The notes: generated by a model not told the origin, from the sequence alone. A DNA stretch of 64,000 nucleotides from Amphiscolops sp. MND2022 (GCA_964187785.1 OZ076409.1:36644001-36708000); one strand, 5' to 3'. Shown: positions 16,995 through 62,995, numbered from the stretch's first letter. Numbers and translations are program-made.

Positions 16995-17120
16995 ACTGTT
17001 GGTAGTGCCGAAGCCGTGGGAAAAAAGCTACTATGCAGCGAGGAACAGCATGATAGCCGAATTGAATGTGGTCAACCCCTGTATGAACCAGGTCTTGAAC
17101 ACATGGTACCAACACTACGA
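16995..17120 (+). CDS. DNAH7: DNAH7-like exon (LLVVPKPWEKSYYAARNSMIAELNVVNPCMNQVLNTWYQHY)
   Basis: Matches the recalled DNAH7 segment EILPKPWRKSF...HLNAMNPTMLAVLDLW. TTTCAG acceptor, GTAAGT donor. Not in the supplied ORF track in this frame. Confidence 0.88.
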
Positions 17121-20242: not shown

Positions 20243-21380
20243 GATATTTCAATGCAAATTTCATTCACTTTCTGGACGTGTTTGTAAGTGTTACTATATA
20301 CAAGGTTTGAATATGCCCACTTAGCACGCCTTTCAAGAACGATAGATACGATGTTCGTCTCATTGAAAACCCTCGAAATGCTAAAAAATGCAACTTGTGA
20401 GCTTCTGACCTTTTTATGCATTATGTTCAATTTGTGGATGGTTTGGTAGGTTTCACTATACAGAGTTCAAAGACTGAGTAAGAACCTTTTTGGCACGTTT
20501 ATGAAAAAAGTCGGAAGTTTGTTTCACAGCACTGCTTCGAATTTCCAAAAAACAGCGAGAATTTTCAAGCTACCTTGGTATAATTCGTACATTTTCCATG
20601 GGTATAAACATCCGCCGAGTTTTAAAAAAACTTGAGTGCCCAAGCAAACAGTTCCGGAGAAACACTTTGGTTTGCGTGAAATCATCCAAAATATTTCATT
20701 TTCCTACTGTTCATGCATCTCTGTTTTCTATTGTTTCATGATTTTATTTCAAATAATTCAAAATTTTTTGTCTGTTCGGAAAATCAAAACATGATTGGTG
20801 AAGCGTTTAACTACTTCGCATAGTTTTGAAAAGAGAAATGAATATTTTTTTCCAAAAAGTGCATGAATAAGCAAAACAATTTTTAGATCTTTTTGGCAGT
20901 TTTTGAACAGGTTGTGGATATTTCCGTAAGTATGAAATTTTAAATTGTTCCGGCATGTGGTAGTGGTAGAGCAAAGGGCCTCCCCTGAATTAAGCTTCGA
21001 ATCTCTCTCAACTCGAAAATGTTGTGAGCAATCTCTTTGCCTTTAGCTCAGTAGTTTGGTTATGAAAAAACGCATTGACATCAAAAATATAAAGATCAGC
21101 GGCGAACAACCAGGTCTTTCTGAGTTTGAGTAAGTCGTGCAATGGTGGAATGAACTTCCTTCTTCTTTGTTACCATCTATCGACTGTTTGTTTGCAATTT
21201 TTTCATTAGTTTTCCATGTTTTGTTGGTATGAGTATCTAGAAAGTTCAACAAAATTAATAGTTTTTAGCCTTGACATGTTCGAAAAAAATTTCGTCAAAA
21301 AGATGAAACTAAAAGTGCCATGATCAACCGAAAAGTGTCAAAGTTGTCGGTTTTTTTTTAAAATTCTCAATTCCCGGGTT

Positions 21381-22959: not shown

Positions 22960-22975
22960 AGGGAAACCCGGAGGG

Positions 22976-23089
22976 AAACTATTTCAATAAAAACATACTT
23001 TTAGGCTCGAGCGTAGCCGGTAAAATACGGAATTCCGTATTTTACCGGCTACGCTCGAGCCTAAAAGTATGTTGTTATTGAAATAGTTT
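22976..23089. repeat. Near-perfect palindrome, 114 bp
   Basis: 57-bp arms, no spacer, centre GAATTC, one mismatch. Confidence 0.95.
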
Positions 23090-23302
23090 GGTGCGGAAAA
23101 ATATCCCGCTGCGCAGTAGCCGTCTTGTTGAAGTTCCCCAACAGTCTGCCATCTCGTTTAGATGTTTTCGTCTTGAGAACTTTTCAAAGATTCCAAAATT
23201 TCACGCACAACTTTGACTCATGAGGGCTTCAGAAAAATCACGATCAAGCCTCGAATGAAATTTCAGTTGATGCTCCACCTGATGTGAATAAGAGGTACTC
23301 AC

Positions 23303-23477
23303 TGAACTTTCCGTAGGAGGAGTAATGTCTGGGGATGCGCTGAGCGGCCAGGCAAATGGCAGATGCCTCCTCGTTGTTGCTGATTTGGTTCTTCAGTCCG
23401 TAGTTGTTTGACATGGTGAAGGTGGACTCGGCCAGAGACAGAACTATCATCACTTTCACTATTTGCTTGTGACTCAC
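23303..23477 (-). CDS. Nested 7-TM gene, exon 3 (VSHKQIVKVMIVLSLAES...ICLAAQRIPRHYSSYGKF)
   Basis: TTTCAG acceptor (phase 0) and A|GTGAGT donor (phase 1); one TM plus a Cys-containing loop. Confidence 0.75.
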
Positions 23478-26277: not shown

Positions 26278-26523
26278 ATCTCTGGCGGCCACGTACCCCA
26301 TGGTGGCAATCTCGAGCCAGTTGATGGGCAGAAGAACCGCGCAGTATCCGAACATGGAGATGCCGAACACGATGAAGAAGTCACTGAGACAGTACATGCT
26401 GTCTCCCTTCAGCAGAATCGAGAGTTGCTCCGACTCACGCGACACAACGTCCAGAAGAATGAGGATGACGCCACAAGTGAAGTAGATGTTCACCACCCCG
26501 TAGATCACCCATAGACACACAGA
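26278..26523 (-). CDS. Nested 7-TM gene, exon 2 (SVCLWVIYGVV...MYCLSDFFIVFG...YVAARD)
   Basis: GC-rich hydrophobic ORF with a GAT|GTAAGT donor. The 5' boundary has no AG; the best fit is TTTCACAC|TCT. Confidence 0.7.
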
Positions 26524-37531: not shown

Positions 37532-38848
37532 TACTTTCACCCTAACAAATAAACTGACTTTGTCTGATAATTTATTCACCCAAAAGTCTTGATGCTATTC
37601 ATCTTAAAATTGAATAGAGACAAAAAAAACTAAGGCTTCTGTTTAAAATTGTACGGACTTGTAGAACTGTATTCTGATAAATCTCCTGAATTGAAAAGAA
37701 CGTTCGTCTATTTCATTGACGCTAAATTTCCCTAATATTCTGCACGAAATTTAAATAAGTAAAGTTATATTACTTCGGTGAAAATAAATATTTTTTTTGC
37801 TCATAAGACATAAGAGACTGACAAATATAAGTGTGGGAATAAATACTGCTATGTCCATAAAATTTTGCTCTATATTTACGTCGGTTCGCTTGATGTAATT
37901 CAAAATATTTATTTCCCATGTTTTTCTTTTTCCAGATAGCTCATTTACATAAACTGCCTTGCACATACTCACGCAACTTCCTTTGTCCGCACGTACACGC
38001 AAGGCACTTCTTTCCAGTACTACGCAGAGTAAGCTATAGAGACTTTCTTACTCACACCCAATTAATAAAGGAACGGTTGTATAGAAGAAATTTGCAAAAA
38101 GCCACAGAAGCTGAACTGACTATTATTAATAACAATTGAACAGTCCCTTGAAAAGAGAAAACAGTAAATATTAAAATTTATCCATGCGTGCGACATATTA
38201 GAAAACTCTCATCAGTCCCACGGACCAAACAATAACCGAGGATGTCACCCTTATGACTTCGAAAACGAATTTTCTCAATAGACAATCTCAAAAATTTGTT
38301 AAAAGTTTTTTAATCCAATTTTTTTCACAAAATATCTTCGGAAAGTCGCGCAATGCCCTCAATGCTCACAAAACGTTGCTTCTGCTAAAAATAAAAGGCG
38401 GGCATTTCGGTTGTTTCTGAAATTTCGGAAAAGTCGCATGGTACGGAGAATGCCTAAGGATGTGATCTTTTCGCTGCAAACATAACTGAAAACTTTTCAA
38501 AAAAGTCTCATAGTGCCGAAAAACGCATGAGAGGGGACCCTTTGGGCTTTTCTATCATCCAATTGGTTTAGAAGTTTAAAATAACTAAAGATGGGACCCT
38601 TTGGCGACCTCAAAAATTTCCCACGAATGTCTGACAATTCCGAGAAAAAAACAGTATAATTGTTTCAGAAAAAAACTATCTACTGAGTGGTTTAGTTACG
38701 ACAAAAGCTTTGAGGACTATGGTAGTCAAAATTGGTACCCTTTGAAAGCATCCGAGAATGCTTTCTAGTAATGTAGTAAAGCCTAAAGAAATTCTGTAAA
38801 AAGTGGACCTTTCACTGTGAGGTTTGTGGTCTGGAGAAAAAAAAGAAA

Positions 38849-39348: not shown

Positions 39349-40815
39349 GGCCTATGTGGTCCATTTTAGCTTCCGTTCTTTTTTTAAAGAAAGAAGAAAA
39401 ACTGCCTATTCCTATTTGGAAAACTGCAAGATCTTTATTTTTTAATTGAGCTTTGTGGAATCTGATACTCGCAAAAACACCATAAATTGTCCAAAAAACT
39501 ACAATTTATGGTCGAAAATTAATATTTTGGACCCTTTTCGGGGCGTTTTTCCTAATTTTAAATGAGAATATGCTCAATACAAGAAAAAGCAAAATTGGTA
39601 ATTGTTTTGTTCTGAACTGCATGGTTACTCAACTCTCAAGTCCGCGAATTTTCAGAAAAATTTAACTGTTTGCTTGAAAATTGATATAGAAGAAAAAAAA
39701 GTTCGTCTCCCAGGAAGACCCACGGAGTGGACGTTGACTAAACATTTCAGCTTTTCAACAGCGGTGCAGTAGTTGTCGGCTGAAAATTGTTATTTTAAAC
39801 TGACTTGTCAATGTCAGAACGGTTTGACGGCTCGTCGTTGGACTTTCAAATTGTTTCCCAAGCCCATTGTCATGACCAAACCTGTTATGGCGCAAAAGTT
39901 TCACATGTATTCGAATTGACTCATCTAAAATAGTATGTCACGGTTACGCATTTGGGGCTTATAAATCGATGAAGATGATTTTTTTTCATTATATACATTG
40001 TAAAACAAAATTTTAACTTTAGCAATTTTTTTTGCATTCAATTTGTATATTCAATCAAGTTATTCATTTTATGATATTCCAAATAAAAACCTGTCGATTT
40101 TTACTAATAATATGAATAATTACTTTGATTTAACGAAATTTCGAGTATTAGTGTTAGAATTGGAAGTTTGAACGGGCTCAAAAATCTTCACAAAAGAGGA
40201 GAGATGCAGGCTACAATCAACGTAGTTGATTTTAGTCCACATAATTATTTTTCGAAAGAAGTTTGACATCGGGTCTTCATTGAAAATCGAAACATTCAAC
40301 CAATTTTAAGATATTTTATTTTCTACGAATTGTCTGTGACTGGATATGAACTACTTTTGTTTCTTATCATGTGTCTTCGATTTCATTTTTTGTATGAATC
40401 ATGTTTTTGATTGTTTCACTTCTAACAGAAAATAATTCACGCTTTATAGCGACATTGATTCTTTACATGTATTTATTTATCTGCTTAACTATGTACTTTC
40501 TTCGACAGTTCGTAATTATAATTTAACATAGAACCTAATCAATAATTTGCGTAATTTATCAGCGAGATAACTAGAACTGCCGTTTTATTCAACTGACAGT
40601 TATTTAGCGGTTTGAATTTCACGTTTCTGGATCATTTGGTGCTTACGTTAGTCAAAAATAAACCGTTTGAGCATTTTATTTCGGTAAAGAATTCTGGAAT
40701 TTTGCTAAATTCTTGGAGCTCAGTAATACTTTACTTCAATCAAATTGAATCAATATAATTTTTCTGTCGTTGTTCCAATTAAAAATTACCAGTATTAAAA
40801 ACTTACTTATTCAAT

Positions 40816-40936
40816 AGTTTAGGTTTTCAAAGTTGATATATGTGGAGCATCGTTGGTTATCATTTTTTGTTAAAAGTTTTAACAAAAAATGATAACCAAC
40901 GATGCTCCACATATATTAACTTTGAAAACCTAAACT
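40816..40936. repeat. Near-perfect palindrome, 121 bp
   Basis: 60-bp arms around a single G (TTAAAA-G-TTTTAA). Confidence 0.95.
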
Positions 40937-41075
40937 TCCAACTCCCTGAACGTAAAACTACCTCATTTTCTGTCACAGACTACCTTAAACTTGAATATCA
41001 AAAAACTACCTAGAATGCAATGATCCAGACTATCCAGATATCTTTTACCCAGAGTAAAGATCCAGAGTAGAGATT

Positions 41076-42590
41076 ATGTCGCGCAAGTTCGTACCAGACC
41101 ACGTGAACCTTCCCACGGTGCCTGGATCGCCTTCCACTGCGGAAGAGGAGACGATGGAGGACATAGAGACGGAAGACACAAACCCAAACATGGAAAACTT
41201 CAACTCGGAGCACGAAGTGTTTGTGGAACCGCATTCAGACGACAAACAAGAGTTCATCCCTGTTCCTAGGAAGCCATGCTCATCCATACAACATGTTACA
41301 AGATCATTTAGGCTTCGATGTTTATTCACAAGCAACAAGCTGTGGAACTTTCGTTTCCATTAAGGAGAGAAAAAAAAACAAAAATTAAGTTGAAATCGAT
41401 TCAAGTTTTGCATAAAAATGGAAGGATGGACATGGCTGTTCTCAGGTCTAATTTCTTCACAAACCCAATCTTGGAAGCTCCTCGGCCGGCAGTCACTGTC
41501 AATGTAGTCAGTGGGTCATTGAAAGGTCGCAGTCGTAAAGACACAAAAAGTGACTCTTCATCTAAGAGTCAGTCGCACAAATCATCTACGTCATCACTGA
41601 GTCGCGTGATGACCCCTGGAAACGTTTCCCGAGAAAGTGGGTACATAACCAGCACCCAGAGAACTGAAATTGGTTGGAATTTTTTTGCTTTTCTCCAGTT
41701 TTTGTGGCTAGAAATAGCCAAACATGTTGTATACGATTTTCGATTGTGTCTATCTTGAATATTGCGCATGTTGTGGCGCAATCCAAAAAAGCCTCTGTTT
41801 TGTTTTAAAAGAGAAACTCACTAGAAAGTATAAAATTTTCGTTTGGGGAAAACAAAAAATTGCCAGGTATCATCAGTCCCAGCAGAACTGGATCGTATAG
41901 GAGCGAAACTGGTGTTAGAGTCACCCATAGACAAACATCTATGGAAACGCCTGGATCTGTTGCAACTACAAGTTCCCAACGTTACAGAGAATTACCTCAA
42001 GTGTTTTTCAACGCCAACAGTCGGAGAAAATCTTCTGCTGAAGGTTAGAATCAAGAAAATGCCTGGTTAGAGTTCATGATCAGTGTTTGACTTGGTGATT
42101 CGTTTGAAGGGCGAGAAGTGACTGCGTCAACCGCTTCGAGCAGATCTGTGGTGAATTCAGGCACCGTTCAAACTGCCCATGAAAACCTGGAAGATTCGGA
42201 AGATTTTGTATTCACAGATTCTTGCACTGCAAGTGATCAGAACAGCGAAGGGAAGCGTGTACAGATAGCAGTTGGTTTTCGATTTGTAGTTCTTGCGAAA
42301 CAAAGAAAACCCAAAATTTTCATTTCTGGTATTTCAGACACCTAGCGGCGGCACGAAAAATTTTTCGCCCTCCAAGTCTTCGCATTCCCAAGCAGTCTCG
42401 TCGGGTCCGACAGGAAAAAGGTCATACGACACATTGTCATCGGTAGAATCTTTGAAGTCTCCTCTCAAAGTGTCCTCGAAAAGGTCATCTGTAATAGCCG
42501 AGGAACAACAAAACCAACTTGAAGAATCGCTACTTCTGGATTTAAGCACTCTAGGATCTTCTCCTCGAAATAGAGTCGGTGGTTCTTCGG
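41076..42590 (+). CDS. Same-strand nested gene, exons 1-5 (approx. 41076-41269, 41446-41640, 41877-42043, 42110-42258, 42338-42590); acidic then Ser-rich low-complexity protein
   Basis: ATG at 41076 and a chain of phase-compatible AG/GT-bounded ORFs with consistent S/T/G/E/K composition. The first donor is ambiguous. Confidence 0.65.
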
Positions 42591-43177
42591 GTACTTCTCT
42601 TTCTTCATTTTCTTAGTTTTTTGCCCACATACCAACCTTCTAACATCCGAATTAAATTGGATATGGTTCTAACTGTGCTGTTTTCTGCCCCCGCTATCAA
42701 AATATTTTAAAGGAAATTTACGAGAAAATTTTTGAACTGGCCGAAATAAAAGTATTTTTTTGATAACAGGAAGTTAACGTCGATTAAAATAGTTTTTCGT
42801 TTGAGCAAACACTTTTCACAAAGTTTGACTGTGATTATGCTCGAATCAACGTTTCGTTTCACTCAAAATCAAAACAAAGTGTAAGTTGTCACGCTAAAAA
42901 AAATGTTTAAAATGAAGGTTTCTGGTCTGGTTTTGGGTTTTTTAAAACTTTTAAAGCTTGGAAAAACCTAAATCAAAAAGAATGTAGTAGAATACAGTAG
43001 ATCCAAAGTTTGATACTTTCGAAATCATCAAACTTTCTGAACATGAAAGCAGTTCTTTTTATATCAATTGACTGTTTGTAACAAAAATTTAGAAAATCCG
43101 CGAAAACGATCGTTTCACATGTATAACTGACTCACACAGCCATAAAGCGTTTTGTAATATTGACAACGTTTCAAAAG

Positions 43178-45770
43178 ACAAGACGCCTGCTGACCAGCGG
43201 GATATATTCCGCCAAAAACTGTCCCACTACGACGTGATTTTGAGGCTCAAAAGTAGGCAATGCACTATGAAAACGCATAGAAGTTCGAAGGAATGAAAGT
43301 TGTCAACTTTTTGATTCATCCTTTCCCATTTTTAGGGGGAACACCTGATTCGAGAATACGTGAAGTACCGATTTGTCTTGTTGTTGAACTAAGTGAACAC
43401 CAGTACCTAACCTACCAAATATTTATGTTTATATACACGAAAAGTCACTAAATGTTTGAAAAAAAGAGGTTTTCCACTCTTTTGGGTAATTTTGACGCGC
43501 TTTTCAAACACCAAACTGCACATATCTTCTGAAAAACGCCTACTGGATATCGGACTCAGTGGATGGTGTATATTCACACCAATCTAGCACGCCAAAAAGT
43601 TGAAAGGCTTTCCAAAAATTGCATGAGAATGTCCAACACTTTTCGGTTTTTTGGGGTTTTCCTTTGTTGTTTTTTTTGTACCAGAAAAATAAAAATTGCA
43701 AAAGTTCCAGTTGGAAGGCGCACTTATTAGGTAGTCGTTTCGTCTTCCTAATGAAAAACAAATACTGAACAGAAAGGTCGAAAAAAAACATGATTCTGAG
43801 GAATTGTTTCAGAACCAATAGGTAGTTTTTGCAGTAGTGCAATTTCGTTTCTAAACCCGTACTGGTAACTACATGCTTCAACCCTGAGCCTCTGTAGTTT
43901 CTAATTTAGAAAAACGTTCTGAAAATGTCCATAAATGGGAAAATAAGGTCAATAAACTAGAAACTTTGGAGTTAATAACTCCTTTGTTCCAATATTCAAA
44001 GAACTTTATCCCATTTTCTTGCCCAAGTCGTGTTTTGAAAAGCCTATTGTTTTCACGTTCAGGTCAATAGAAGTTTTTTCTACAAAACTATTGTGAATCG
44101 AACAAAAACTGGCGCTTAATAAAAGGAAATTAGAACGGGGGAAAATAACGAATAAGCAACAGCAATTTTCTCCAAAAATATAAAACTTACGCGTTTGATC
44201 GTTGTTGAAGGTTTTCATCATTCTACCACAAGAAACTTCGGGACAATTTTACAAATCTTGCAAGAAAGATATCAATTTTGAATAATTTGAGATTTAGACG
44301 GTTTTTGTCAATTTGTGGTATTGTTCATTCTAAAAATCAGCCATTTTTAAGTTAAAGGAAGTACTGCCTTGCTAGATAATTCGTTTGGAGTCTAAGTTTT
44401 CTTCTAATTTCCAGTCTTTAATCAAAAAGTCTACAAAACAAATCTAGAAAAGTGATAAAATGTTAATTTCCGACACCTTTGAGGGCAATTTGCATACACA
44501 AACAAAAGCATGCGGACATCTCTTCGAAAAGCCTACTTGTGAAAAGTTTCATTCCCCTTCGAACCATTTCAACTTTTTAAGTACAAATATTCTCAAAATT
44601 TTGATCAAAGTTACATAAAAACTTCAGAAAAAACAGAACTGTCCGATCTTGCGTCTCATTTGGAGTCTTTCTGAAGTGTTTTTCTGAAGAACGTACCACT
44701 GCAACTTTCTCAACGAGAAGGTGCAATTCACAGCTAAATTTTTCGTCTGTGAACTTTCATAAAAAAAGTAGCAACTTGCATTTTTTATATATTCTGATTT
44801 CAAAACGTTTCTAAGATTAAACACGTTGCATAACAACGTGAAGATTTCGGATTTTTAAAATTTTTTGTCCCATTTGGAGTCATTCTGAAGTGTTTTTGAA
44901 GCAAAAAAAAGCAAAAAATGTACTGCATATCTGGTGCCGTCGTCTTTGAATGTTTCGAAGCTTCTAACCCATGCAAACCCTCGGAAAGTGAACCAAATTG
45001 TATGAAAAATGACAAAGCTAGAAAATTTTGGAATATGTTTTTTTTGTGTCCTTATGAGACTTTTTTACATCTAACTCAAGCATTTATCTCTTCACAAAAG
45101 TCTACTGGACAACGACTTTTTCTTGTTGAATGCTTTCACAATTTATTCTGCAATTTCTATGAAAAATTTGATAGTTGTTGCATAAAATTGTGGAAACTCG
45201 AGTTTCCGTCAATTTCATTTTCAATTTGAGGCTTTTTTTTATCGGAACACTGCATTTAGTTTTCAAGAAAAACCTCCTGGATAACATTTTTTCTTGTTGC
45301 GTCTTTCATCTTTCTAAGCAATGCAGTCTACCGATAATTAGACAAAATTTGCAAAAAATATGTAAAAAAGAATCTGAAATTTTCGGAACTTTTGTCAATT
45401 TCGGTAAAACTTTGAGGCATTATTCCATCGAAACGCTGCTTTTATTTTATCAGAAAAACCTCCGGGACAATAAATTTTTTAAATTGAACGTTTATAACAT
45501 TCTAAGCCACCAAGCCTGCGAAAAATGCATAAAAACAGTAAAAATTGGTTTTTGGTGTCTTTTTGTGTCATTCTGCGGTTCTTCGGGTCAACTAAAAAAG
45601 TCCAAAAATCTCAACAAAACGATATCGCATAAAACTAAGTTTACCCCCCATGGAATTCCTTGGGTGAAACCCTTTAACTTGGTTTTAAATTTGAACATGG
45701 CAAATTTTGTTAAAAAAACGCGGCTGATTCAAATATTTTCTTTTCCCATATAAAATATGGGCGGGTGTAA
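43178..45770 (-). mobile_element. Family B Helentron-like element in an intron of the nested same-strand gene
   Basis: ACAAGACGCCTGCTGACCAGCGGGATATATTCCGCC (reverse complement of the 3' end) at 43178; reverse complement of the 5' end (ATTTTCTTTTCCCATATAAAATATGGGCGG) at ~45735-45765. Confidence 0.7.
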
Positions 45771-45815
45771 TAAGAAAAAGCAAGAGTCTCGTGGGTATTT
45801 GTTGTATGTATTCAG

Positions 45816-48800
45816 CTCAGATGTACAACAACAGCATGCCAGCAGCACCCTCGTTGTACCCTGGGGCAACTCATAGTTCCGACAGTTCTTCTCTACTCGC
45901 TCCACAAATAAGAATTCATCTAACACATCAAGACAATCGTGGTCAACTTGATTCAAGGCTGGTATCGTCTCCAATTCTCAATGGGATTCATAAATCTCCC
46001 GCTTTATGAATAACTTTTGACAAAAACAATGTTACAAATGAGCAAAAGGGTAACCCGATAATTTGAACGAACAGAACGGTATTGACGAAATCTGAAATTC
46101 ATACGGCAATGGACTTTCAGGGACATTTTGAGCAAGTTTTTGTTTAATGCAATCTTTATCCCGCTGTAAACTCAAAAGATGACAGTTTAATATGAAAACA
46201 AACAAAATTAGAGATCTGCCAATTCTTCTGATTATTCAATGTCATCCATGTTTTTGACCAATTGTTTGTCTACACGAATACAGCCAATTGACTGCAGACA
46301 ATGTATGGCTTCAGTGATGCTTTTATTCCACGTATCCGCTTGCAAAAGTTCGAGTTTTCCAGGTCAATTCATCCTAGTTCCTGGGGCAGAACCCCTGTGT
46401 CTTTTCCATCTATGCCGACTTCGAGAACAACGAACTCCTCTGGGAGTGGCTCTTCCTTCTCTTCCTACAGTCCTTCGTTCTCCCATCAGTACTCCAGCCC
46501 CGAGAAAACAAACAACCATAGGGACCGAGAGAGATTTCCTTCCGACATCAGGACTATGACCTACAGCAGTTACACTGAGGTGCCTTGCTCTACTTGCGAC
46601 AACGAAAGTTTCTCCAGGTTTCAAACTTTGCCAGTGGTTTCAGCAAAAAATGTTAACCACAAGTCTCAAGGCGACAAAATCAATAATTGAATTTGAAATG
46701 AAATGTTTTCGTCACAGGAGCTATGAAGAATTTATGCAAACGGAGCACATCACCGGAGATGGAACCCAGCGAAACTATATGAGTTTGTTCACAGGCACTG
46801 AAATCCCACTTCTAACTCGCAGCGTTAGGACTCAATGTTTTCTATATCTTCCCCGGTTTTCGAAAATGGTAAAAAGTGGTATTCAAATAACTAAACACAT
46901 ACTTTACCCCATTACTGTTATCAAAAATCCTTGCTCTTAATTGTATAGACGGGACTATAGTGAGCTCGAAACTTCAACAGACAATTGATAAATTGCTGAT
47001 CGGAAAAGAATATTTGATAGTTTTGTTCAAGTCTTCGTATTATGATCATAGGAAATCTATTTTAGTAGTTTTACATTAAAGATGCCATTTTTACGCCAGG
47101 GGGAGACAACAACAACTAGACCTTTTTCGTTCGGACAACAACTCCACCCTGACTTATTACGTCACACAGCGTCCAATTTGAGTGACACAATCGCTGCTAA
47201 TTTTGGTCGTCTTCAGAAGATACCGCCCGTTGTAAGGACAGCGATGAGTGCGCAAGAAGTGAAAAGCAAAGGATCTAGGTTCGGTTCTAGCTCCACCTCA
47301 TCCTCTTCAAAGCGTGCAGAAACTGCGAATGAGGATACTCCTGGAGATAGTGCAAGTGCAGATGACACGGGAACTGCGAAGAAGACTTGTGAGGTCGTGC
47401 AGAGTTTGGTCGATGATATTGAGTCAGAGGCAGGGATTAAAGAACCGGGTTATAATAAATAGTTAGGAGTTAACTCCTCAGAAAGACAGACTCCTCGCAG
47501 GAAATTGAGTGCACTCGATTTACAGAAACTTATTGACACGTTGGAATGAGGATGTGCAAGATTATTGTATTTTTTGGAGATTTTTCGAAAATCAAAACAA
47601 GCTCATGAGGACCCTTTTATGAGCAAACAGCTCATTGTCTCAGAAGTTTTTCCTAATTCCTTTCGACCATGAATTCCTGTCTATTCCGTTTGCTTTGATG
47701 AAAAATGTCAATGCTAACTCTTCATCCCTTCAACGGGGCAATCGCCTTTTGGGAGTATTTTCTGGCATTGATTTCGTCTGTGTTTGACTTATGTTGTTTT
47801 TATAATTCAGCCAAATAAATCAAATATTATTAATATTAAAATACCGTTTAATCCTCTACCATGGTTTATTAACATTACTTAACCCTACGTTTGTTTGGCT
47901 GTCATTCATAATCCCTGCTGGGACCCTGCAGGATGTGAACGGAGAAGAGGAGGATTTTGAGGAGGAGCTGGAAGGGGGAGAAGAAGAAGAGGAAGCAGCA
48001 GAGTTGGGGGAAGAAGAGGGGAGAGCTAGTGAAGGTACCAGGGTTGTTGAATGACTCATTCATTCAAGACTCTCATTTTCACCTGAACTATCTAACTGGT
48101 TTCTAACAGACAGGAATCATCCCAGCGTGATTCTAACAGAATATTAACTTTTGTACAAAGAAACAACTTCGAGCCAAGCTGGCAACGCTAAGGACCGTCA
48201 ATTCATGTTATTATTTTTTATGCTAATTTTTTCGAAAATTCTGCGAAACTAATCAAACAACATCTGTGTGTATAGTTTGGTGTATACAGATTGTGTATAA
48301 ACATGTAGTTTTTGACATCCCTGACAGGCACTCAACTGGGGGGAGCAAGCACCCAAGAGTCTGTCAAGTTCTCAAGGACAGGATACACGGTGCCTACCAG
48401 CAGCCAAGACCAGCAAAGCACAAACAGCAAGACCTCCCTGAGAGAGAGGGTAGCTAAGTCGGCCGCCACTAAAAGCAGTGTCTCGTGGAAACCCTCTATT
48501 AAGACATATTCATCAAACTCCATGAAAGACACTGAGCTCAGCTTCGTACGTTATCATGATAACCTTCTCTTCAATTGCTGTGTCTTAAAGAGGACTTTCC
48601 TTGTTTCAGGAACACGCATTTGAGGATGTTTTTAAAAGATTAGATAAAAGTAACCTTGACAAAATATGTCTATTTCTTATTCCAGCCAAAACGCTGTTGT
48701 TTTTGATTTCTATTCAAGCCATCTTTCCACGGTAATTCACAAAAAACGCATTTTCAGTGTTTCCTATCATTATACTTGCTAGTTTGTTGACAATATTACA

Positions 48801-50660
48801 CAAGGAAAATTTAGAGGGAATAACTGTAGTTTGTAAAACTGACCAGGAAGAGTTTATCTGCACTGCTGGATCTGTATGTGACTGCACACAGACTGACGAG
48901 AGTGGTCTCACAAGAAGCAGCAAAAATAAATCCCAGGCCTCACAGAGCGAGGACTTGCTAATCGATGACCTTGAAGAGGATGCCAACGATGGGGGCATGC
49001 AGACCCTGGGGTCAAGTGGAGGCGTTATGAGAAGCACGACCAAACGTAGCAAGACTCCATCTAGGTCAACCGGTCCGACTAGATCTGTGGTCAAAGTACA
49101 TAAACTCACTTTGCGCTTGTGGTTCATGCAATTTTTGAAATTTCAAACGAACTTTTTTTAGACCGAAAGCGGAGAAGAATATTTTCTGCCAAATGCTTTC
49201 TTCCCGATAGTGACTCTTGATATTTTCTCGGTAGTGACTATGTAGTGTTTAAGAACAGTGTTTATTAACAGTTTAATAACAATAATAATTGAACTTGAGA
49301 AGTTTTTCCGATTTTTATAAACTCGCATGCATGTCATTAAGCAAAGTGAGTGTTGTAGAGCTTGAAAAGTGGCGGATCCGGTATGAATTCCAAGCAGCCA
49401 TCCTTGTCTAAAAAGTCGTTCGACTTCAGCAAGAAGTCAGGCAGCAAATCAGAACAGATAAGTGAAAAGAGCCGATCCGACTCGTTTAACCAAACCAGTT
49501 CGACCGGCCCCAAGTATGGGGAAGGTCTGTCTGGAGCAAGTTCCGAGATGAAAGGTTCTCAAAGTCTTTCGGGATCTGGAGGTAGTTTGGCAAAGAGTGA
49601 AACATTGACAGGAGAAAACCTGCGGGGTTCTTCGGTGAGAGTGGATACTGTAGTTCAAACTAGTGGGGATTCTGTTACTGGGTCCTCCAAACGAAGGACC
49701 CCATCACGAAGTACCACCCAGTCTTTCACCTCTCCAGCTTCGGGTAGTAAAATAAAAAGCGTGAAGTCTGTCAGCCAATCAAAGAAATCTTCCGGATCTA
49801 GAGCGGTGATGCCGGAACCTACACAAAGTGTTGCTGCATACCCGAAATCTTTGTCCAGCAGTGGCCCCAAGTTAGGCAGCAAGATGATCGCTCCCAAAGT
49901 AGGACCGTCATGGATTTGAACTTCTCACTCCGTAAAACTTTTAGTTTAGTGGCATCCCACTATTTTTATGTACTGTTGTAATGTAGTCTACACTGCCAGT
50001 TAGGCTACATACATGTAGGTTTAATCTGTTAGTTTCTGGTGTTAACGAGACCAAAGTTTAAAATTTTTCGCTATCGAGTGAACGATGTTTGATTTTTATC
50101 TTCGTTTTTCCTCAGATGTACCTGAAATTACCTCTTTCGCAACTGATTTCTACGAAATCTTTTGAAACGATGCGAAGAGTGGTCTAATTGTGAAAAAGTT
50201 AATCTCAAGCGGTTTCACGTTCCCGTTAGCTTTCAAGGTTAGCCCATCTGTCACTCAATTGTGCTTGATTATATTTTATGACGGCTCTTTGCTCAGGCGT
50301 CGTCAGTGGGGGGTGCTTATAACCGAAACCAAACTGGAGTTGGTACCAATGTCAGCATCAAGGCCCCTACAGCCCCGGGTGGCATGGCTGGAAGCAGCGC
50401 CGAGTCAGTTCGTAGTATGAGTCCAGCTTCATTCACAGCCGAAATAAAACTGGATCTCAAGGTAGACTTTGGCAAGGATGGTGCCATCATACAAGCACAG
50501 CCGATAGCTGCAGCGCCACCACAGAACTCCGCTGACGTTCAAAGCTCAACCGCTGGAAGTGGATCCACGTATGTGCGCAGTAGAGTACCGGACACACCGT
50601 CTTTGAAAAGCTCAACTCGGAGCACAGGATCTAAAAAATTAACGTCCACGCAGTCTTCGG
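45816..50660 (+). CDS. Same-strand nested gene, middle exons (approx. 45816-45961, 46298-46617, 46718-46823, 47217-47429, 47932-48034, 48328-48545, 48892-49095, 49359-49898, 50297-50660)
   Basis: Phase-consistent Ser/Gly/Thr/Lys-rich exons plus a poly-Glu exon (DVNGEEEDFEEELEGGEEEEE). Some boundaries (47217, 47429, 50660) are uncertain. Confidence 0.7.
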
Positions 50661-50932
50661 GGATGGATTTATATCCGACACTATCTCTTACGAAGTCTCA
50701 TAAACTTTGAACTAGTTTTTATTCAATTTTTCAACACTTTGACAAATATCAAAGCTGAGTTTAACTTAAGTAACAATTTGCTTTGTAATAGAAAATGCTT
50801 TCAATGCAAAAAGTGTATTTGAAGCTGTCGCTGATGAAACTATTGCAGTAGATCAAGAGTTTTATTCTTCCATAAGACCTGAAAAAGCATCGAAAAGAAC
50901 GATATAAATCAAGTGAAGCACGACGTCACCAG

Positions 50933-53900
50933 GAACGGGAACCAGTGGTTCCGTTGTGAACTCGGGATTGGGGGGTGATGCAGTGGAGGACGGGTCATTG
51001 CAGAGCGAGAAAGAAACGACAGGCGAGTTGTCGGAGATAAACGAGACTTCGGAGACAGGAGGCGAGCTCCTTATGGACGAGGTTGAAGACGAGGCACCAG
51101 ACGAGTCGGGTGCTTCGGACGGAACCAGTTGCGAAGATCTCACACAGGCCATGATGTGCGTGACGTTATAATTGGGTGTCATTGAAATGTTTTTTTTTTT
51201 CAATAAAAAAGAAGGTTTTCTCCCCAAGCAAAAAATTATTCAGAATCGAACATTAATTTCATCCATCTTTTCCATGTTTGAAGAATCTGAGTTTTTTGCT
51301 GTAATTTGCTTTTTTAATAGATTCTCAGACCTGTTATGTTTCCGATGCCTTTCTGACAATTATCAAAATGTCAGTAAAAGCTTTTACTGACATGTTGATA
51401 ATTGTCAGAAAGGCATCGAAAATATGACAGGTCTACAGGCCTAAGCTAATGTAGTACTTTAGTGCCCAATACTATAGCGCGTGAATTGCACATCATTCTT
51501 CTAAAGAGAATTATGCGCCCAAGACAGAACTCAGATTGCAGCTCAGATGAGAATAGACCGATACATAAGGAATGAGTCACACTTCCACGACGACCGCGAG
51601 TTGATAGAGCGACTGATGCTGCATTCTGAAGACAGACTGTCTAGGTTTGCATTCGACTACCGAGACCAGTACTTCGCCAACACAAACAGACTCATGTCCC
51701 ACTGTCACGCCTCCGAGCGGTTTCTTAAACATTGGAACCAGACCGAGAAGGCACTCTACAAGTTGTTCAGACACAACAAGTAGGCCCTGCTTAAGCAACA
51801 AACATTCGACAGTTTCAACTACAACATTGGTCTATTGGTATTCCGTATTCTAAGAAAGTATTCGTCAAACTTGCAGAACCTACTCGATTTTCACGAAGTT
51901 GAAAAATTATTTTTGAAAAATTTTCAGTTAATAATTTGCCCCAGGATCTCTTGAGGATGCTAATATGACTCGATTAGAAAACTTTTCGATTTGAAATAAA
52001 ATTCATCAATTCTGTGAATACTAGACTTCTTATGCAGTCCGATGATACAAGAGCATCTATTTGTTAATAAAGTTAGGAATGCCTGTACTCCTGAGTAAGT
52101 GTGGTCCCAAGCGATTTCTCCTTACTGAGTGTGGTCCCTATAGTGTAAGTGTGGTCCCTGCATATTTTGTCGGAAGAATTATTATAACGTAGTCAGCTAT
52201 GTTCACATACTCCTAGTGCTCTAAATGCAGGAGCGAAGCGAAGCGGAGCGACGTGCCATATGGCCATGCCTCAATGTTGCTACTTGGCGAAGGGAGCGAA
52301 GCGACCGGGCCATACAACAAATATGCTAAACTCCTCAAAACAAGTTCCATACATATTGGCTGTAACAGCACTAAAAGCTAGTAAATTCAATTCTGCTGTT
52401 TTGAACTACATGTAATGTTTGCTTTACGCTGGCTATTCTAAATTTGCTAGGGACCACACTTAGTCAGGAGTTTGCAGACCGGCTGCATAAATTTTGTAGG
52501 GACCACACTTAGTCAGGAGTACCGGAAAGCCTAATGGTTTCGCAATTTTCTCAAAAAATGGCAACTTTTTAATGAGTTGGAGAATAAATGGAAATTAAAA
52601 TGGTTTCTGAAGTAAACAAAAATAAAAAACTAATATCGGAAAACAAATTTCAATGGTAATGCATAGCGAGTTGTGAATTGCTAACTTCCGCAAAAAGTGT
52701 CACAAAAGTTTCAAACAGACAGAAATTAAACTATAAGAATTCTTTTATGCTAATGTTTTTGAAACAATCGATTATCTAAATGTATTGACATAAAGATGTT
52801 CTCGTTAAAAATTTTTTGGAGTTTAAACTCCAAGAAATTTTTATCGAGAACATCTTTAGATCAATACATTTACATAATCGATTGTTTCAAAAACATTAGC
52901 AGAAAATTAGAGTCTTCGGAGCATTAATACCAAATAAAGCTTCCATTCTTTAGTCATAAACTCTACGTACTTCGGAACAGAATAACTTTGAGCATACAGT
53001 AACGTGGTGAAATATCGCAACTCCATTGCATAAAATTGCAAAATTCAAATCCAAATATCTTAAAACCTGCCAGGAATACGAAAAATTGTCAGGTACGGAA
53101 GTTTCTTAGAATTTTTTGCAGTTTTTGAAAGCATTTGGTTGAAAAATTTGCGACAAAATTGACAAAAGTTAGAAGTTTTAAATTCTGACAAAATTTCATC
53201 GAATTTTCTTCTTGATTTTCGATATGGGTCGTAGACATTTCAAACAAATATTTTTGTAAACTAGATTAGATTCTAAGACACTTTTGTTGCTAACAATTTT
53301 TTTGTATTCATGACAGTTTGAAAGATATTCGATTATGAATTTTGTCATTTTGACAAATGGAATCGCGATATATTAGACCGCTACTGTACTCAAAACGCAT
53401 TGCTATCAAAATTAGTTTAGGCTGAAATTGTAGAAAGTTGAAAATGTATTAGGTAGAAATTGTGATCAGTTGAAATTGTTACGGTGGAAATTGCGTAGGT
53501 TGAAATTGCATAGGTTGAGATTGAATAGGATGAAATGTCCTGACATCGTTTGCTATTACAGGCAAAATGCTACTTAGAGTATTGTTACCAATTGGTTGCT
53601 ACTACGAAGTGAGCCATGAGACTAATGTTGGAACATGTTCTATGATCCTACAATGGGTTCATCGCTGTTTCTCATAGTAATCTTGATGATGTGCTTCTCC
53701 ACGGTTCTCAAAAAAATTGTCTTGATGCCCTTCAAAAACTGTATTCCTTTCCAAATCATCATACTCTATGAATTTTTTAAAGCAAAAATGAGTAAAACTT
53801 AGATATATATAATCAGAACTCACCCGAAAGCCTCTCAATTTCTTGTTGATTGTTTGCTGCCGTCAGAGACAAACCGAGGATTCCTTACCGCCAAGAGAAC

Positions 53901-55416
53901 TGTTACGATGAGAACAAAAGAAGGGTCAACCTGCCTTTCTATGGAGGGGTGGCCGCCAAAGAAAGCTTTTCATTGGTCGCCAATTTGCAGAACTCTCTTG
54001 CCTTGCTCAACCAGGGATGGGGACTATACGATTACATGATATAGATCAACGTTTGATGCTTATATTTGGTGAAGTATAATGAGGGGTTCCTTCGTTCTTG
54101 TTGAGTTCATTTCGGAAACATTCAAAGATATAATGAAACCTTTGACAAGAACTATGCAAAGTCTTGAAACTTTCATCATGTTTTTGCCATTACCGTTGTG
54201 AGCTTTTCAGTTCAATGATTTTTGTTATACTGATTTTTGCAAGATTTTTTCTGTAAGAATTTGGTATCATTTTACATGTTCAGATTGCATGAACTTCTAT
54301 CGCAAACTGGCAAATATTATTCAAATCATATACCTCAAATAATATTCTGATTTGTGTTTCGAGGAATATTTTGAGGTTGAGGATCGTTTTTGATGGACGA
54401 AGGAATAACGTGAATCTAATATTCTTATGATAAGTTCACCTTAAGTATTAGTCGAAACATTAATTAAATAAGTTTTTGAAAAACACATCTACTCTAACCC
54501 ATTTCTGAGCTTGTGCCCATCAGTCTCTGAACCAAAAACAAACGAGTCTGGTGAAAACGAATCTTCAGAATGCCCTGAGACAGCTGGTGGGTAAGAAGAT
54601 GCAGAGACCCAGTCCTATGGAGATCCTCATTGTGATGGAGAGACAAAAGCTGCGTTTCGAACTCATTCACCGCGACCTGTGCAACAACATCTCCAAAACT
54701 ACCGATGCACTCATTCAAAACGTGCGAAACTATCATCACTCGCCTTCAAACGCTTTTTTAAATTTCTCGATTGGTGAAAAAGGCAAATGTTTGATAAAGA
54801 CTTGAAAGAGATGCTTGCTTTTTCAGAAATCCATGGATTTCTCAGCTTTGTTTTTGGTTCGTAGAACTCAATCGACCAAATTCGTTCTCGATTCTGATTT
54901 ATGAACGATTACTTTCTCGGAATCGATTCAGTTTTTCTCTATTTTTCTCTCCCAATGAACCATGAGTTTTTGTTCCGGTTCGTCTGTTAATTAACGACTG
55001 TTTTCTGCTACATTTTTCTCGGAAGTTTTGGTATAAACAACTTTCGGCAGCCTCAACTTTGTTTTTCTTTGCTATTAATTGCTCACTACGGAAAGATTTG
55101 CACAGATTTCAGTAAAAAACTTAACTGCGCAAAATCTATTGGTTCCTTTGAGGGCTGGTTGCAGGTTTTACTGAAACAAGAGAAAGAAGTTTGGCGGTTC
55201 ATAGAACTGAAGCATCAAGAGATTATGACTTTGTGCAACTTCATTGCTGAGAACGAGGATGAAGTTTGGAAGAAATCCAAAGACCAGAATCAGCATTATC
55301 TGTCTCACATTGAGGTCGAGCCTTTCTACAGAAACAAGAGCGAATTCTTGCAGCATCTCAAACATGTCAGCAGAAACATGCATGATCGGATGGGCCGACC
55401 TGATGATAGAACTTGA
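50933..55416 (+). CDS. Same-strand nested gene, 3' exons (50933-51155, 51528-51779, 53867-54014, 54524-54721, 55165-55416); predicted alpha-helical C-terminal domain of unknown family
   Basis: Phase-consistent exons ending in TGA at 55414-55416. High-complexity helical sequence (MRIDRYIRNESHF...NLQNALRQLV...HLKHVSRNMHDRMGRPDDRT*). Confidence 0.72.
51327..51434. repeat. Near-perfect palindrome, 108 bp
   Basis: 54-bp arms, centre AAGCTT, a few mismatches. Confidence 0.92.
52086..52521. mobile_element. MITE, Tc1/mariner-type (TA-flanked) with IR/DR-like terminal repeats
   Basis: TA|CTCCTGAGTAAGTGTGGTCCC ... GGGACCACACTTAGTCAGGAG|TA; the AGTGTGGTCCC core occurs 3x on the left and 2x on the right. 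Confidence 0.75.
52748..52901. repeat. Near-perfect palindrome, 154 bp
   Basis: 77-bp arms, centre GTTTAAAC, a few mismatches. Confidence 0.92.
53420..53545. repeat. Degenerate 15-bp tandem repeat (GTTGAAATTGxxTAG)
   Basis: About 8 periodic GAAATTG-like motifs. Confidence 0.65.
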
Positions 55417-56594
55417 TGAGTATATTGCGATTCTGTTTTTTTTTGAAACTGTGTAGAAACAAATGATACCTCATAATTTTTTTGTATTGGTATTTCTGAT
55501 GGTATATAATTTTTATTAACATAAACAACTTTGAAGGTTATACTCATTTTTAATGGCAAAACAGCAAATTGTGCAGATGTAGATTCTGCATCAAATAGTC
55601 AGGACAAGCGTCTTAATTCATAAGTTTTCCAACAACTGAATGAATTATATCGAACTAATGACCTGTTCTGTTGATAATTCTTGACCTCTTTCCGTTAATT
55701 TAGTTGATCTATTCTTAATTTACTCAGCTTATCAGACTTATACAGTGACGCTTACGTGTAACATTGAACGAAATATTTATGGGGGAATAAGAAAATTGAT
55801 TTCTCAGCAAGGTTTTTTTACAATTTGTCCTGCTTCAATTTAATACTCAAACAAAAGTGTTCCTTCCTCAGTATTCAGTGATAAAAAATAGATTCGTTGT
55901 AAATATATTTTTAAAACTTGAAATTTTTCACAGAAAATGCGGTAAATTAGAAATGTCAATATGATACAAACTTCAATTTTCGAACTTTTTGTGCAAGTTC
56001 CGAGCAAGTTTCAGAACTTATGTTGCTGACAGTTCGGAGCGATAACTGTCTCGAAGCTTATCGGGTCTCTTGTTGAAATTTTGTAATCAGTCTGTTTCTG
56101 AAAAACATGGGCAAAAAGCGGTGGAATCACAACTTTTTACTTCTTGTTTTCACTGGGAATAAGAAATGTCCGGATGGGAAAATTTGCTATAGATGGGATT
56201 GAGCGTGTGTAGCAAAATCCACAACCAATTCTCTGGAACATCGCATTACACCGCACGGTTACGCAAATTTTGCTGGAAGCAGTAGAATCCACTAAAGACA
56301 CCCAATACATGGCGAAATTTCAGTCGCCTGGTTTCAACAATCCGCGCAGCAGTGGATTACAAAATAGATGCAGCGAAATCCGTTGAAAATAAAACTCTGG
56401 CTTTCTGATGGCTTCTTTCTGAAACAGTGGAGTTCGCTGCAACCAACTGGAAATCAGCCAAAAATTCATATGAAAATATGCTAGCGGAAATCACTGACTC
56501 ATAAACGCAAAATGTGTAATCCTTTTTCGGCAGAGTAGTGTCCAAAAAATAATTATTGAACTTTTAGTAGCCTGGACACAAATGCCTTCGGTTT

Positions 56595-59563: not shown

Positions 59564-59683
59564 TAAAATGCGATTCGTGGACGCCAATGATTTCTGCAAC
59601 ATCCGAAATGCTGTGGAGCTGGCAGTGTTTCAAGGAATAGTGAACAAACATATAGAAAGCACTAAAGAACGCCTGCATAAATC
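59564..59683 (+). CDS. DNAH7: DNAH7-like exon (KMRFVDANDFCNIRNAVELAVFQGIVNKHIESTKERLHK)
   Basis: Matches recalled KLRLVDIKEFHNCQDALELSSFQNIIMRHMDSAKETLLK. TTTAG acceptor, GTGAGT donor; phase 2 continues from 17120. Confidence 0.88.
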
Positions 59684-60223: not shown

Positions 60224-60407
60224 ATGGTTTCCCGAAATCCAGAACTTCTACTTCCAGGGTAGCAAGCGTCGCATAGTGCCGACGAGTCACAACCCCCGTA
60301 AGCTGGAGTCATACTTCAACTGTGCCGCCGCTCTTATGACCCGCAACCTGCAAGTTCTTGGCATCAATTCCATCCTTGACTACACTGACCTCCTCTGCAA
60401 ACACGAG
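60224..60407 (+). CDS. DNAH7: DNAH7-like exon (WFPEIQNFYFQGSKRR...KLESYFNCAAALMTRNLQ...TDLLCKHE); gene continues beyond the window
   Basis: Matches recalled WFPEVQNIYYQGNKKK...KLESFFNCAAALMTLQLQDL. CAG acceptor, GAG|GTCAGT donor. Confidence 0.92.
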
Positions 60408-61130: not shown

Positions 61131-61393
61131 TCACAAGTCTACATGGTCTTTGTTCTTGAGCATGGCTTTGTATCCGATGATCATCTTCTTGAACCAGAAA
61201 CAGTTCATCAGACTGACAAGGACGTAGAAGAAAGTAGATGAGGCGTGATAGATTGTCTGTGACTTGGGGTCGTTCCAGAGCAGCTCCAGTTGCCAGTACA
61301 GCATCCAGGGTATGGGGATGACCCGGGTTATGAGGAAAGAGTAGAACATTCCAGTGGATACAATTTTGTACACCAGTGACTTTTTGGAGTATT
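61131..61393 (-). CDS. TLC-domain protein, last exon
   Basis: TTTTAG acceptor in phase 1; TLC motifs FLITRV and LMNCFWFKKMIIG; stop codon. Confidence 0.85.
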
Positions 61394-62643
61394 CTAAAAC
61401 ATTCATGTTCCACATTGAAATCCATGATTAATTCTCTATCTCAGAAGTAACTTGAGGTCAAGGGAGAGAAGGTTTGATGCATGTTAAAAATTCAAATAAG
61501 TATGTAATAGAAATAGATGTAAGAATAAGTCTATCTTTGCCCAATAAAAAGATCGAGATGTTTCCGGTGCCCACGGGACTTCAACACAACTCTGAAAACA
61601 CGATCTGTGCCAATTCTAAATGTAACGATAAGCATTGACATAGCTTGATAGCTACGGTAGATGGAGAAACTAGACTACAAAACATATACGTCCGGGACTA
61701 GATCGTTTCGTAAACCAGCACATTTTCCTCCTAGGAATGCTTTACTCCTAGGAGAGGAACCGTCTTAAAGGACATTATCTGGCCCAAATCCAGTCTGTTA
61801 CTGCTACTAGGTACGGGCATTATGCTTTTTCTTATAACCACTGCAGAAATAGCCTCTAAAAACTGTGTTGCTGAATTTCTGAATTCATTCCAAAAACGGG
61901 AAACCTGATAAACGAAGAAATAATAAATTCAAACAATAGCTCTCGAGTATATTAATCTAGACAAGAGTCAAAAATCAAATATTACATGTAGTCCATGTAG
62001 AAGGTAAGGTCGTCTGCACACCCAGCGTGCGAGCTGGACACACCTCCTGTGCACCGGCAAATACTTTAAGGTCCAATCATGGTCAGAGAGTGTCGTTACC
62101 AAAAGTGACGATAATCTCCCATTTTACGGCACAACACCGTGGTTTGGCACGTTTTTCTAGCTGTTTTTTTGTCTCTCTCACTTTTCTTCTCGCGGGCGGC
62201 TTTTTTTGCGTCTTGTTCTGCTTTCTTGCTGACGAAACATGCTCACAGTCCGAAACATTTTGGACAAAACATGCTCACAGTGCCACGTCAATTTTGAACA
62301 AATTTTTGGATACCAGTCAAAATATAGTGGGGTCGGCAGTTGCCGTTCCAAAACCTGTCCAAGTCGAACTTGACCTCATTAACATATCGCAGCTTTCTGT
62401 TTTTATCATTTAATTCACAACACTTCATCGGGGTTTACCTTCCTCGTCGTTGACTTGGTAAAATATAAAACTTAACAGCCTAACCTCGTTTTTATTGGAC
62501 GAAAAAATATAAACGATATAGGTACTTTTCAATACTATAGTACAATTTATCTGTTGAAGTTAAATAAGGAAGGACGCTTGAACAACTGTTCAGAAGAAAA
62601 TAATAATCAGAATTTAGACCTGTAGGGACTCCTTTAAACTTAC

Positions 62644-62995
62644 TGAGAGACAAACACATGAATCTGCAGCTGATGTAGGGGTTAGCGAGCTCCATCAAAC
62701 AGAAGACATGTTTGGGTGTGAGCCAATTCCCGTCGTAGTGCGATGACTGTGAAAGGCCTACTCCCACCAAATGATGAATAACCATAAAGATGAGATTGCG
62801 CTTCAGTTGAGCAACTATCCTGAAGACTGTGTCGGCCAGCAAGTAGGCGCCTATGGAGCAGTTGCACCAGCGAAAAGCATAAAACATGCCCTGGTAGTTG
62901 CCTTGAGGGAAGTTGAATATGAGTGAATAGACTGTGATGACGCTGACTGCTGATGAATTTACTACTGAGACCACGTCCGTGCAAAATGAATTAAC
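62644..62995 (-). CDS. TLC (TRAM/LAG1/CLN8) domain protein, TLCD4/TMEM56-like, middle exon
   Basis: TLC hallmarks GAYLLAD, MVIHHLVG and MELANPYISCRF. TAG acceptor, A|GTAAGT donor. Confidence 0.85.

What the first reader, a model, noticed from the sequence alone, without database searches (positions are those of the whole stretch)
40979..55416. Same-strand nested gene: ~19 exons that the host dynein transcript must skip
Seen: an independent ATG-to-TGA exon chain on the same strand as DNAH7, ending about 4 kb before the next dynein exon. Its donors are mostly weak (GTACAT, GTACAG, GTACTT, GTATCG, GTTTCA, GTGCGA), while the flanking dynein donors are strong (GTAAGT, GTGAGT). Splicing dynein exon 17120 to the acceptor at 40978 gives an immediate stop (GAA CTA CCT TAA), so this is not a simple in-frame dynein isoform. 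Inference: the dynein pre-mRNA must ignore all these exons and the nested poly(A) site; weak or non-canonical sites, or mutually exclusive cell-type expression, may allow this.
Basis: partly seen in the sequence, partly recalled or inferred. Interest (0 to 1): 0.75.

Follow-up and report, generated by a model that had tools for sequence, protein, structure and literature searches.

The report
Nineteen-exon gene inside a dynein intron
A likely 19-exon gene with no known relatives lies inside one intron of a cilia motor (dynein) gene and reads in the same direction; its predicted splice signals are unusually faint for this genome, which would help the motor gene's message skip over it.

Summary
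The architecture is real. DNAH7 exons 16995-17120 and 59564-59683 join in frame across a 42.4-kb intron (human residues 249-289 | 291-328). Inside, on the same strand, lie 19 single-copy, GC-rich, stop-free islands (about 1,400 codons, Ser/Thr-rich, helical C-terminus). No homologue was found and no RNA run was listed, so the chain is a prediction; three junctions (A-B, P-Q, R-S) have no convincing sites.

Yet against a genome-trained model the nested sites are weaker: donors 0.1 vs 3.2 bits, acceptors 1.5 vs 3.9. Neutral decay cannot explain this, since it would leave about 50 stops. "Not an in-frame isoform" is unproven: the host donor is in frame with four nested acceptors.

Best reading: an independent, lineage-specific, probably tissue-restricted nested gene whose faint splice sites keep it out of dynein mRNA. 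Same-strand nesting is known, but 18 introns is extreme (fly median among multi-exon cases: 1). No non-nested orphan gene was available as a control.

The parts
16995..17120 (+). Host DNAH7 exon upstream of the intron (human 251-288); phase-2 donor CGA|GTAAGT, 4.5 bits
17121..59563 (+). 42.4-kb phase-2 DNAH7 intron; the same position is about 1.16 kb long in the paralogue on G000:C11
59564..59683 (+). Host DNAH7 exon downstream (human 291-328); acceptor 2.5 bits, donor 1.0 bits
40979..41290 (+). Island A: acceptor at 40979, ATG at 41076; donor not resolved (best -1.3 bits)
41446..41636 (+). Predicted exon B; phase-2 acceptor in frame with host exon 17120
41867..42043 (+). Predicted exon C
42110..42270 (+). 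Predicted exon D (alternative donor 42258)
42338..42590 (+). Predicted exon E
45816..45961 (+). Predicted exon G (both ends uncertain by a few nt)
46363..46617 (+). Predicted exon H, the best-defined one; phase-2 acceptor in frame with the host
46718..46823 (+). Predicted exon I
47100..47429 (+). Predicted exon J (donor 47393 or 47429)
47932..48034 (+). Predicted exon K (Glu-rich)
48328..48545 (+). Predicted exon L
48847..49095 (+). Predicted exon M; shares a 30-nt 83% repeat with exon D
49162..49230 (+). Predicted small exon N
49359..49898 (+). Predicted exon O, 180 Ser-rich codons; other frames hold 12 and 9 stops
50297..50620 (+). Predicted exon P; donor not resolved
50933..51155 (+). Predicted exon Q (acidic); acceptor not resolved
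51507..51783 (+). Predicted exon R (helical, GC3 0.63); donor at 51779 or in-frame TAG 51781-83, with 35 coding-like codons beyond it and AATAAA at 51995 and 52066
54524..54721 (+). Predicted exon S; weak repeat similarity to T
55165..55416 (+). Predicted last exon T (helical), TGA at 55414-55416

Best explanation
A likely independent, lineage-specific protein-coding gene of about 19 predicted exons lies on the same strand inside a 42-kb DNAH7 intron, and its unusually weak predicted splice sites would let dynein transcripts pass over it. Shown: the host intron, the coding islands, their single-copy status and the low site scores. Inferred: the gene arrived after DNAH7 duplicated (or the paralogue lost it); it has its own promoter or upstream non-coding exon; and it is spliced from its own transcript across mostly short (66-500 nt) introns. 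Also inferred: it is expressed in a narrow cell population, by analogy with flies most likely the germ line. In dynein-making cells its sites sit in the range of the decoy exons the host already ignores. Its poly(A) site is bypassed because an intronic poly(A) site needs an activated upstream acceptor. The predicted product is a long Ser/Thr-rich disordered chain with a helical C-terminal region, likely a scaffold or structural protein.
For: Host collinearity. Open-frame asymmetry and dynein-like codon use in A, H, L, R and S. Junction pairs beat shuffles overall (Fisher p 4e-5), and CAG|G is enriched at acceptors (11 of 18 windows vs 4.6 expected). ATG 41076 has an in-frame stop just upstream, as a first coding exon would. 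Sites are weaker than homology-defined dynein sites even ignoring phase (donors 0.1 vs 3.2, p 7e-5; acceptors 1.5 vs 3.9, p 0.014; n 18 vs 113). They are also weaker than ab initio sites of other genes, including donors of antisense-nested genes (3.0, n 8, p 0.006). Decay would need d about 0.3-0.4 and leave about 50 stops; 0 of 1,396 codons are stops. The intron holds 43 plus-strand pseudo-exon pairs at or above the reference 25th percentile. Flies: same-strand nested genes are depleted of introns and testis-biased (PMC3814207). A DNAH7 paralogue exists as possible backup.
Against: No transcript evidence and no homologue. Only 4 of 18 junctions beat shuffles at p<=0.05, against 72 of 98 reference junctions. 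An unconstrained chain through mostly non-genic DNA reaches similar median scores, so weak scores could partly mean wrong boundaries. A-B, P-Q and R-S are unresolved, and the TAG after R may end or break the gene. Acceptors are not significantly weaker than those of antisense-nested genes (p 0.21, n 7). No non-nested orphan multi-exon gene was found as a control, so the weakness may be a trait of fast-evolving genes rather than of nesting. Control rows were picked by eye.
Confidence: 0.5

Rival explanations
1. The islands are an alternative 3' branch of DNAH7. The host donor 17120 splices to a phase-2 nested acceptor (41446), making a motor-less protein of about 290 aa of dynein N-terminal tail fused to the Ser-rich chain, with weak sites setting it as a minor, regulated isoform.
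For: In frame with four acceptors; 1,223 stop-free codons through 41446. A-B has no good donor, so B could be the entry exon. In human, 22 of 53 tandem 'nested' genes were re-judged as alternative 5' or 3' exons of the host (PMC3192792, section 6).
Against: Island A has strong coding signal, its own ATG and only poor phase-2 acceptors (-4.2). Four of 18 acceptors in phase 2 is unremarkable. The paralogue has no such branch.
Confidence: 0.2
2. The islands are not one intact gene. They are either two or three short tandem units (for example ending at the TAG of R, with S-T separate) or a very recently inactivated gene with a nonsense codon at 51781.
For: Coding-like codons continue 35 codons past the TAG (p 0.004, one of 24 post hoc tests). 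There is no good R-S pair. AATAAA follows E, J and R.
Against: D and M share a DNA repeat. R, S and T show a faint repeat likeness (BLASTP finds none). Most other extensions are not coding-like. Decay beyond 2% is excluded by the open frames.
Confidence: 0.2
3. Host and nested gene are co-expressed, and the nested short introns are simply excised inside the large host intron (inner-first or nested splicing), so skipping needs no weak sites and the weakness is incidental.
For: Most nested introns are short. Co-expression in single cells occurs in mammals (PMC11694760 passages). Stepwise removal of long introns is documented (titles and abstract starts).
Against: It does not explain why both site types are weak. 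The recursive variant fails: regenerated donors score -2.5 to -11.4, and AG|GT is not enriched (4 of 18 vs 30 of 115).
Confidence: 0.07
4. The islands are non-coding, transposon cargo or an assembly artefact.
For: No homologue, fold match or RNA. An unchecked note says transposons in this genome carry spliced cargo genes.
Against: Single copy by DNA and protein; 3% repeat-masked core; strong frame and strand asymmetry; no N-gap in the window.
Confidence: 0.03

Closest known systems
Same-strand nested genes of Drosophila (Lee and Chang 2013, PMC3814207; Assis 2016, PMC5174743)
   Same: Complete gene in a long intron of a conserved host on the same strand; fast-evolving or orphan nested partner; mis-splicing proposed as the cost.
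   Different: There 72.5% are single-exon and the multi-exon ones have a median of one intron, so the conflict is avoided by having few sites. Here about 18 introns are predicted with weakened sites. Expression is untested.
OMP in CAPN5 (PMC6549253) and KTI12 in TXNDC12 (PMC3192792)
   Same: Same orientation; the host skips the intron carrying the nested gene (OMP); host exonization occurs near the nested gene (KTI12).
   Different: OMP is single-exon; no internal splice sites have to be ignored.
SAFB suppression of sense intronic elements (Ilik et al. 2024, PMC10901741)
   Same: Explains how sense intronic units with poly(A) sites avoid becoming gene traps; cryptic sites are weaker than annotated but above random; suppression relaxes in testis.
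   Different: Targets are intronless A-rich L1, Tigger and retrocopies. These exons are 30% A with 1.9 GAAGAA per kb. SAFB in this genome was not examined.
Alternative terminal exons of a host mistaken for nested genes (PMC3192792)
   Same: Same strand, in-frame entry possible.
   Different: Here island A has its own ATG and an upstream in-frame stop; not decided without RNA.
Recursive splicing (ratchet) sites
   Same: Several nested acceptors are followed by GT or GC.
   Different: Not enriched, and regenerated donors are decoy-level.

Membership tests
Same-strand nested protein-coding gene | Lies wholly within one intron of a host whose flanking exons join in frame | tested here: met
   (human 288 to 291 collinear); intron position conserved in the paralogue
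Same-strand nested protein-coding gene | Same strand as the host | tested here: met
   19 of 19 islands open on plus, 8 of 19 on minus
Same-strand nested protein-coding gene | Protein-coding under selection | tested here: inconclusive
   Frame asymmetry and codon use support it; no homologue for dN/dS
Same-strand nested protein-coding gene | One continuous spliced frame from ATG to TGA | tested here: inconclusive
   A chain exists but A-B, P-Q and R-S lack convincing sites
Same-strand nested protein-coding gene | Own transcription start, no exon shared with the host | not testable with these tools
   No RNA data; an in-frame entry from the host is possible
Alternative 3' isoform of DNAH7 | Host donor in frame with a nested acceptor | tested here: met
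   41446, 46363, 46718, 51507
Alternative 3' isoform of DNAH7 | Chimeric junction present in RNA | not testable with these tools
   No run available
Decayed pseudogene | Stops and frameshifts in proportion to splice-site erosion | tested here: not met
   About 50 stops expected, 0 in 1,396 codons; one candidate TAG after R
Recursive splice sites | Acceptors that regenerate a usable donor | tested here: not met
U12-type introns | U12 donor consensus (motif recalled) | tested here: not met
   No match in 40001-56000
Transposon cargo gene | Multiple copies in the genome | tested here: not met

The most novel reading that the evidence does not exclude
Splice-site camouflage: an 18-intron gene survives on the same strand inside an essential motor gene because selection has pushed nearly all its donors and acceptors down to the spliceosome's minimum. 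It is then invisible to the dynein transcript and spliced only from its own promoter or in a permissive cell type. This would be a third solution to the same-strand conflict, beside intron loss and opposite orientation.
Probability: 0.25. Interest if true: 0.7.

Novelty: new variant of a known kind. Interest (0 to 1): 0.45.

Why it matters
Same-strand nested genes with many introns are thought to be removed by selection against mis-splicing; the fly evidence is that they are rare and intron-poor. An 18-intron case with measurably weakened sites would make a direct test of how a spliceosome tells two overlapping same-strand transcripts apart. If the fusion rival holds instead, it is a motor-less inner-arm dynein isoform. 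If RNA shows ordinary separate expression and equally weak sites in other orphan genes, the locus is just an extreme member of a known class.

Tried and rejected
RNA: no RNA holder was listed for 46200-55500; this is no evidence either way. Homologues: none from word-seeded searches with exons T and O (weak, since a DNAH7 exon also found none), full HMMER with exon R (0 hits), metagenomes with T, Pfam, ESM Atlas (low recognition), or PDB with the repeat alignment. Single-sequence folds of R and T are helical but low confidence (pLDDT about 56), and Foldseek gave nothing at E<=0.001. Rfam had no hit. A hidden non-canonical splice motif: none convincing beyond CAG|G; U12 none. Intronization: frames do not run further into nested introns than into reference ones (p 0.17). 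Candidate exons 43336 and 52217-52376 are dispersed repeats. Genome-wide chain and cluster controls were swamped by transposons, and 400 kb of extra sequence gave no non-nested orphan gene. In one search the nested cluster scored 1.4, between clean dynein clusters (3.2-8.8) and most transposon-rich clusters. One search used a wrong Pfam accession and tested nothing. The bacterial promoter scan is irrelevant. Kumar 2009 was not held.

Full report
Setting. The window is G000:C1:36644001-36708000 of a 1.07-Gb genome. That it is an animal is inferred from DNAH7 and the neighbouring genes. The host is DNAH7: four exons match human residues 163-232, 251-288, 291-328 and 331-388, and 16995-17120 + 59564-59683 + 60224-60407 translate without a stop. 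The motor and C-terminal domains follow over the next 200 kb. An intronless inner-arm dynein from a metagenome contig (L026) aligns collinearly in 52 pieces; the three with stops include intron sequence. A paralogue on G000:C11 has the same phase-2 intron at about 1.16 kb, and no match to the nested model except a dispersed repeat. So the 42.4-kb intron is real, given the assembly, and the nested material is specific to this copy.

The islands. Nineteen GC-rich stretches between 41076 and 55416 each have an open plus-strand frame, while shifted frames carry many stops and only 8 of 19 are open on the minus strand. A, H, L, R and S have dynein-like synonymous codon use (0.22-0.36 bits per codon against -0.28 for intronic frames). 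The Ser-rich pieces are intermediate. Exons R, S and T and the DNA of 40700-43500 and 46200-51800 are single copy apart from small repeats. A chain model yields 19 exons and 1,443 aa, but it omitted N and used a repeat as a bridge. The predicted protein is 17% Ser and 9% Thr, with a helical C-terminal region at low confidence. No relative was found.

Splice-site yardstick. I defined junctions by protein alignment alone in five dynein genes of this genome: 146 examined, 113 donors and 115 acceptors kept, the rest dropped for low alignment margin, low score or length difference. Only 14 of 113 are GTRAGT (host 6 of 37). Donors after exonic AG are nearly free at +3 to +6, and others need +5G (47 of 52). 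Long introns have no stronger donors (median 3.4, n 18).

The weakness is nonetheless there. Taking the best site within 60 nt of each boundary regardless of phase, nested donors have median 0.1 against 3.2 (p 7e-5) and acceptors 1.5 against 3.9 (p 0.014) (18 vs 113, reference scored leave-gene-out). Intronic decoys sit near -5. U1 matches average 5.6 of 9 against 6.3 (16 resolved donors, p 0.001). Exons of other genes called ab initio (host N-terminus, three antisense-nested genes, a LIM-homeobox gene, a phosphatase-like gene and a transporter; labels partly recalled; rows chosen by eye) have medians of 5.0 for acceptors and 3.3 for donors. For the antisense-nested genes alone, donors differ (p 0.006, n 8) but acceptors do not (p 0.21, n 7). 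Neutral decay would need d about 0.3-0.4 to give these scores and would leave about 50 stops, against 0 in 1,396 codons.

Results against. Only 4 of 18 junctions beat shuffles at p<=0.05 (72 of 98 for the reference). The combined p of 4e-5 is inflated because windows were centred on chosen sites. A free-running chain through mostly non-genic DNA reaches similar medians, so some low scores may be wrong boundaries. A-B, P-Q and R-S have no good pair. After R an in-frame TAG is followed by 35 coding-like codons (p 0.004, post hoc, 1 of 24 stretches) and by AATAAA, so the gene may end or be broken there. No non-nested orphan gene turned up as a control in 400 kb.

17120 to 40979 stops at once, but 17120 is in frame with 41446, 46363, 46718 and 51507, giving 1,223 open codons through 41446. 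Kaer et al. re-judged 22 of 53 human tandem nested genes as host terminal exons (PMC3192792; abstract and section 6 read). The poly(A) hurdle is not special: 40 plus-strand AATAAA lie in this intron, and the first after the TGA is at 56388. Ilik et al. state that intronic poly(A) sites do not terminate transcription unless an upstream acceptor is activated (PMC10901741; passages and section 8 read). The intron also holds 43 plus-strand pseudo-exon pairs at or above the reference 25th percentile, which the host must already ignore.

Mechanism. Most likely an independent gene with its own start, spliced across short introns in a restricted cell type, and skipped in dynein transcripts because its sites are at decoy level (0.5). 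Rivals are a dynein-tail fusion isoform (0.2), several units or a freshly broken gene (0.2), co-expression with inner-first splicing (0.07) and artefact (0.03). Recursive splicing, U12 introns, a hidden motif and intronization were tested and not supported.

Comparison. In Drosophila 71% of nested genes are on the opposite strand. Same-strand ones are 72.5% single-exon, have a median of one intron when multi-exon, and 58% peak in testis (PMC3814207, passages; PMC5174743, passages). In mammals, orientation bias is slight and co-expression occurs (PMC11694760, passages). OMP in CAPN5 is same-strand but single-exon (PMC6549253, passages). PMC4889658 (passages) covers telescripting and excludes introns with nested genes. 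Supplements were not read and may list multi-exon same-strand cases. Searches listed no paper on weakened splice sites in same-strand nested genes; most subscription journals are not covered. The other large dynein introns inspected here (host 43 and 17.6 kb; C6 37 and 18 kb; C3 30 kb; C1 17 kb) showed transposon frames and no similar gene, by eye.

Verdict. A real and extreme case of a known arrangement, with one calibrated oddity (weak sites at both ends) that is testable but rests on predicted junctions without RNA. Interest 0.45.

Noticed in passing
window 18057-26500, minus strand: An antisense multi-exon membrane-protein gene (at least 3 exons, no Pfam hit) in the same 42-kb intron, with normal-strength splice sites.
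   Followed up: partly
window 61131-62995, minus strand: TLC-domain (TRAM/LAG1/CLN8) gene nested antisense in the next DNAH7 intron.
   Followed up: partly
L004:7983 to L007:1784, minus strand: LRR-Ig-FN3 gene nested antisense in a later DNAH7 intron. This host carries at least four nested genes.
   Followed up: partly
five dynein genes: The genome has a relaxed, compensatory 5' splice-site rule: T is common at +3 (35%), AG|GT donors are free downstream, and non-AG donors need +5G.
   Followed up: yes
window 5735 and L010:3782: Two GC-AG introns in the host DNAH7 gene (the first by eye, the second by alignment).
   Followed up: partly
G000:C1:36904700-36913200: Recent tandem duplication (98% over 3.3 kb) containing the last DNAH7 exon.
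   Followed up: no
G000:C11 about 5.96-6.21 Mb, minus strand: Second DNAH7 paralogue (73% identical over the tested exon).
   Followed up: partly
window 40816-40936: A 121-nt near-perfect palindrome 43 nt upstream of acceptor 40979; others at 51327-51434 and 52743-52906.
   Followed up: no
window 37936-38028: The strongest plus-strand pseudo-exon of the intron (12.4 bits) lies in a repeat; it could be a recruited 5' non-coding exon of the nested gene.
   Followed up: no
window 47463-47548, 48610-48672, 50116-50237, 50792-50901: Protein-like stretches or strong exon-like site pairs between the modelled exons; codon use does not support them, so they may be alternative exons or chance.
   Followed up: partly
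L008:7173-7372: A 200-N gap in a later DNAH7 intron; none in the window.
   Followed up: no
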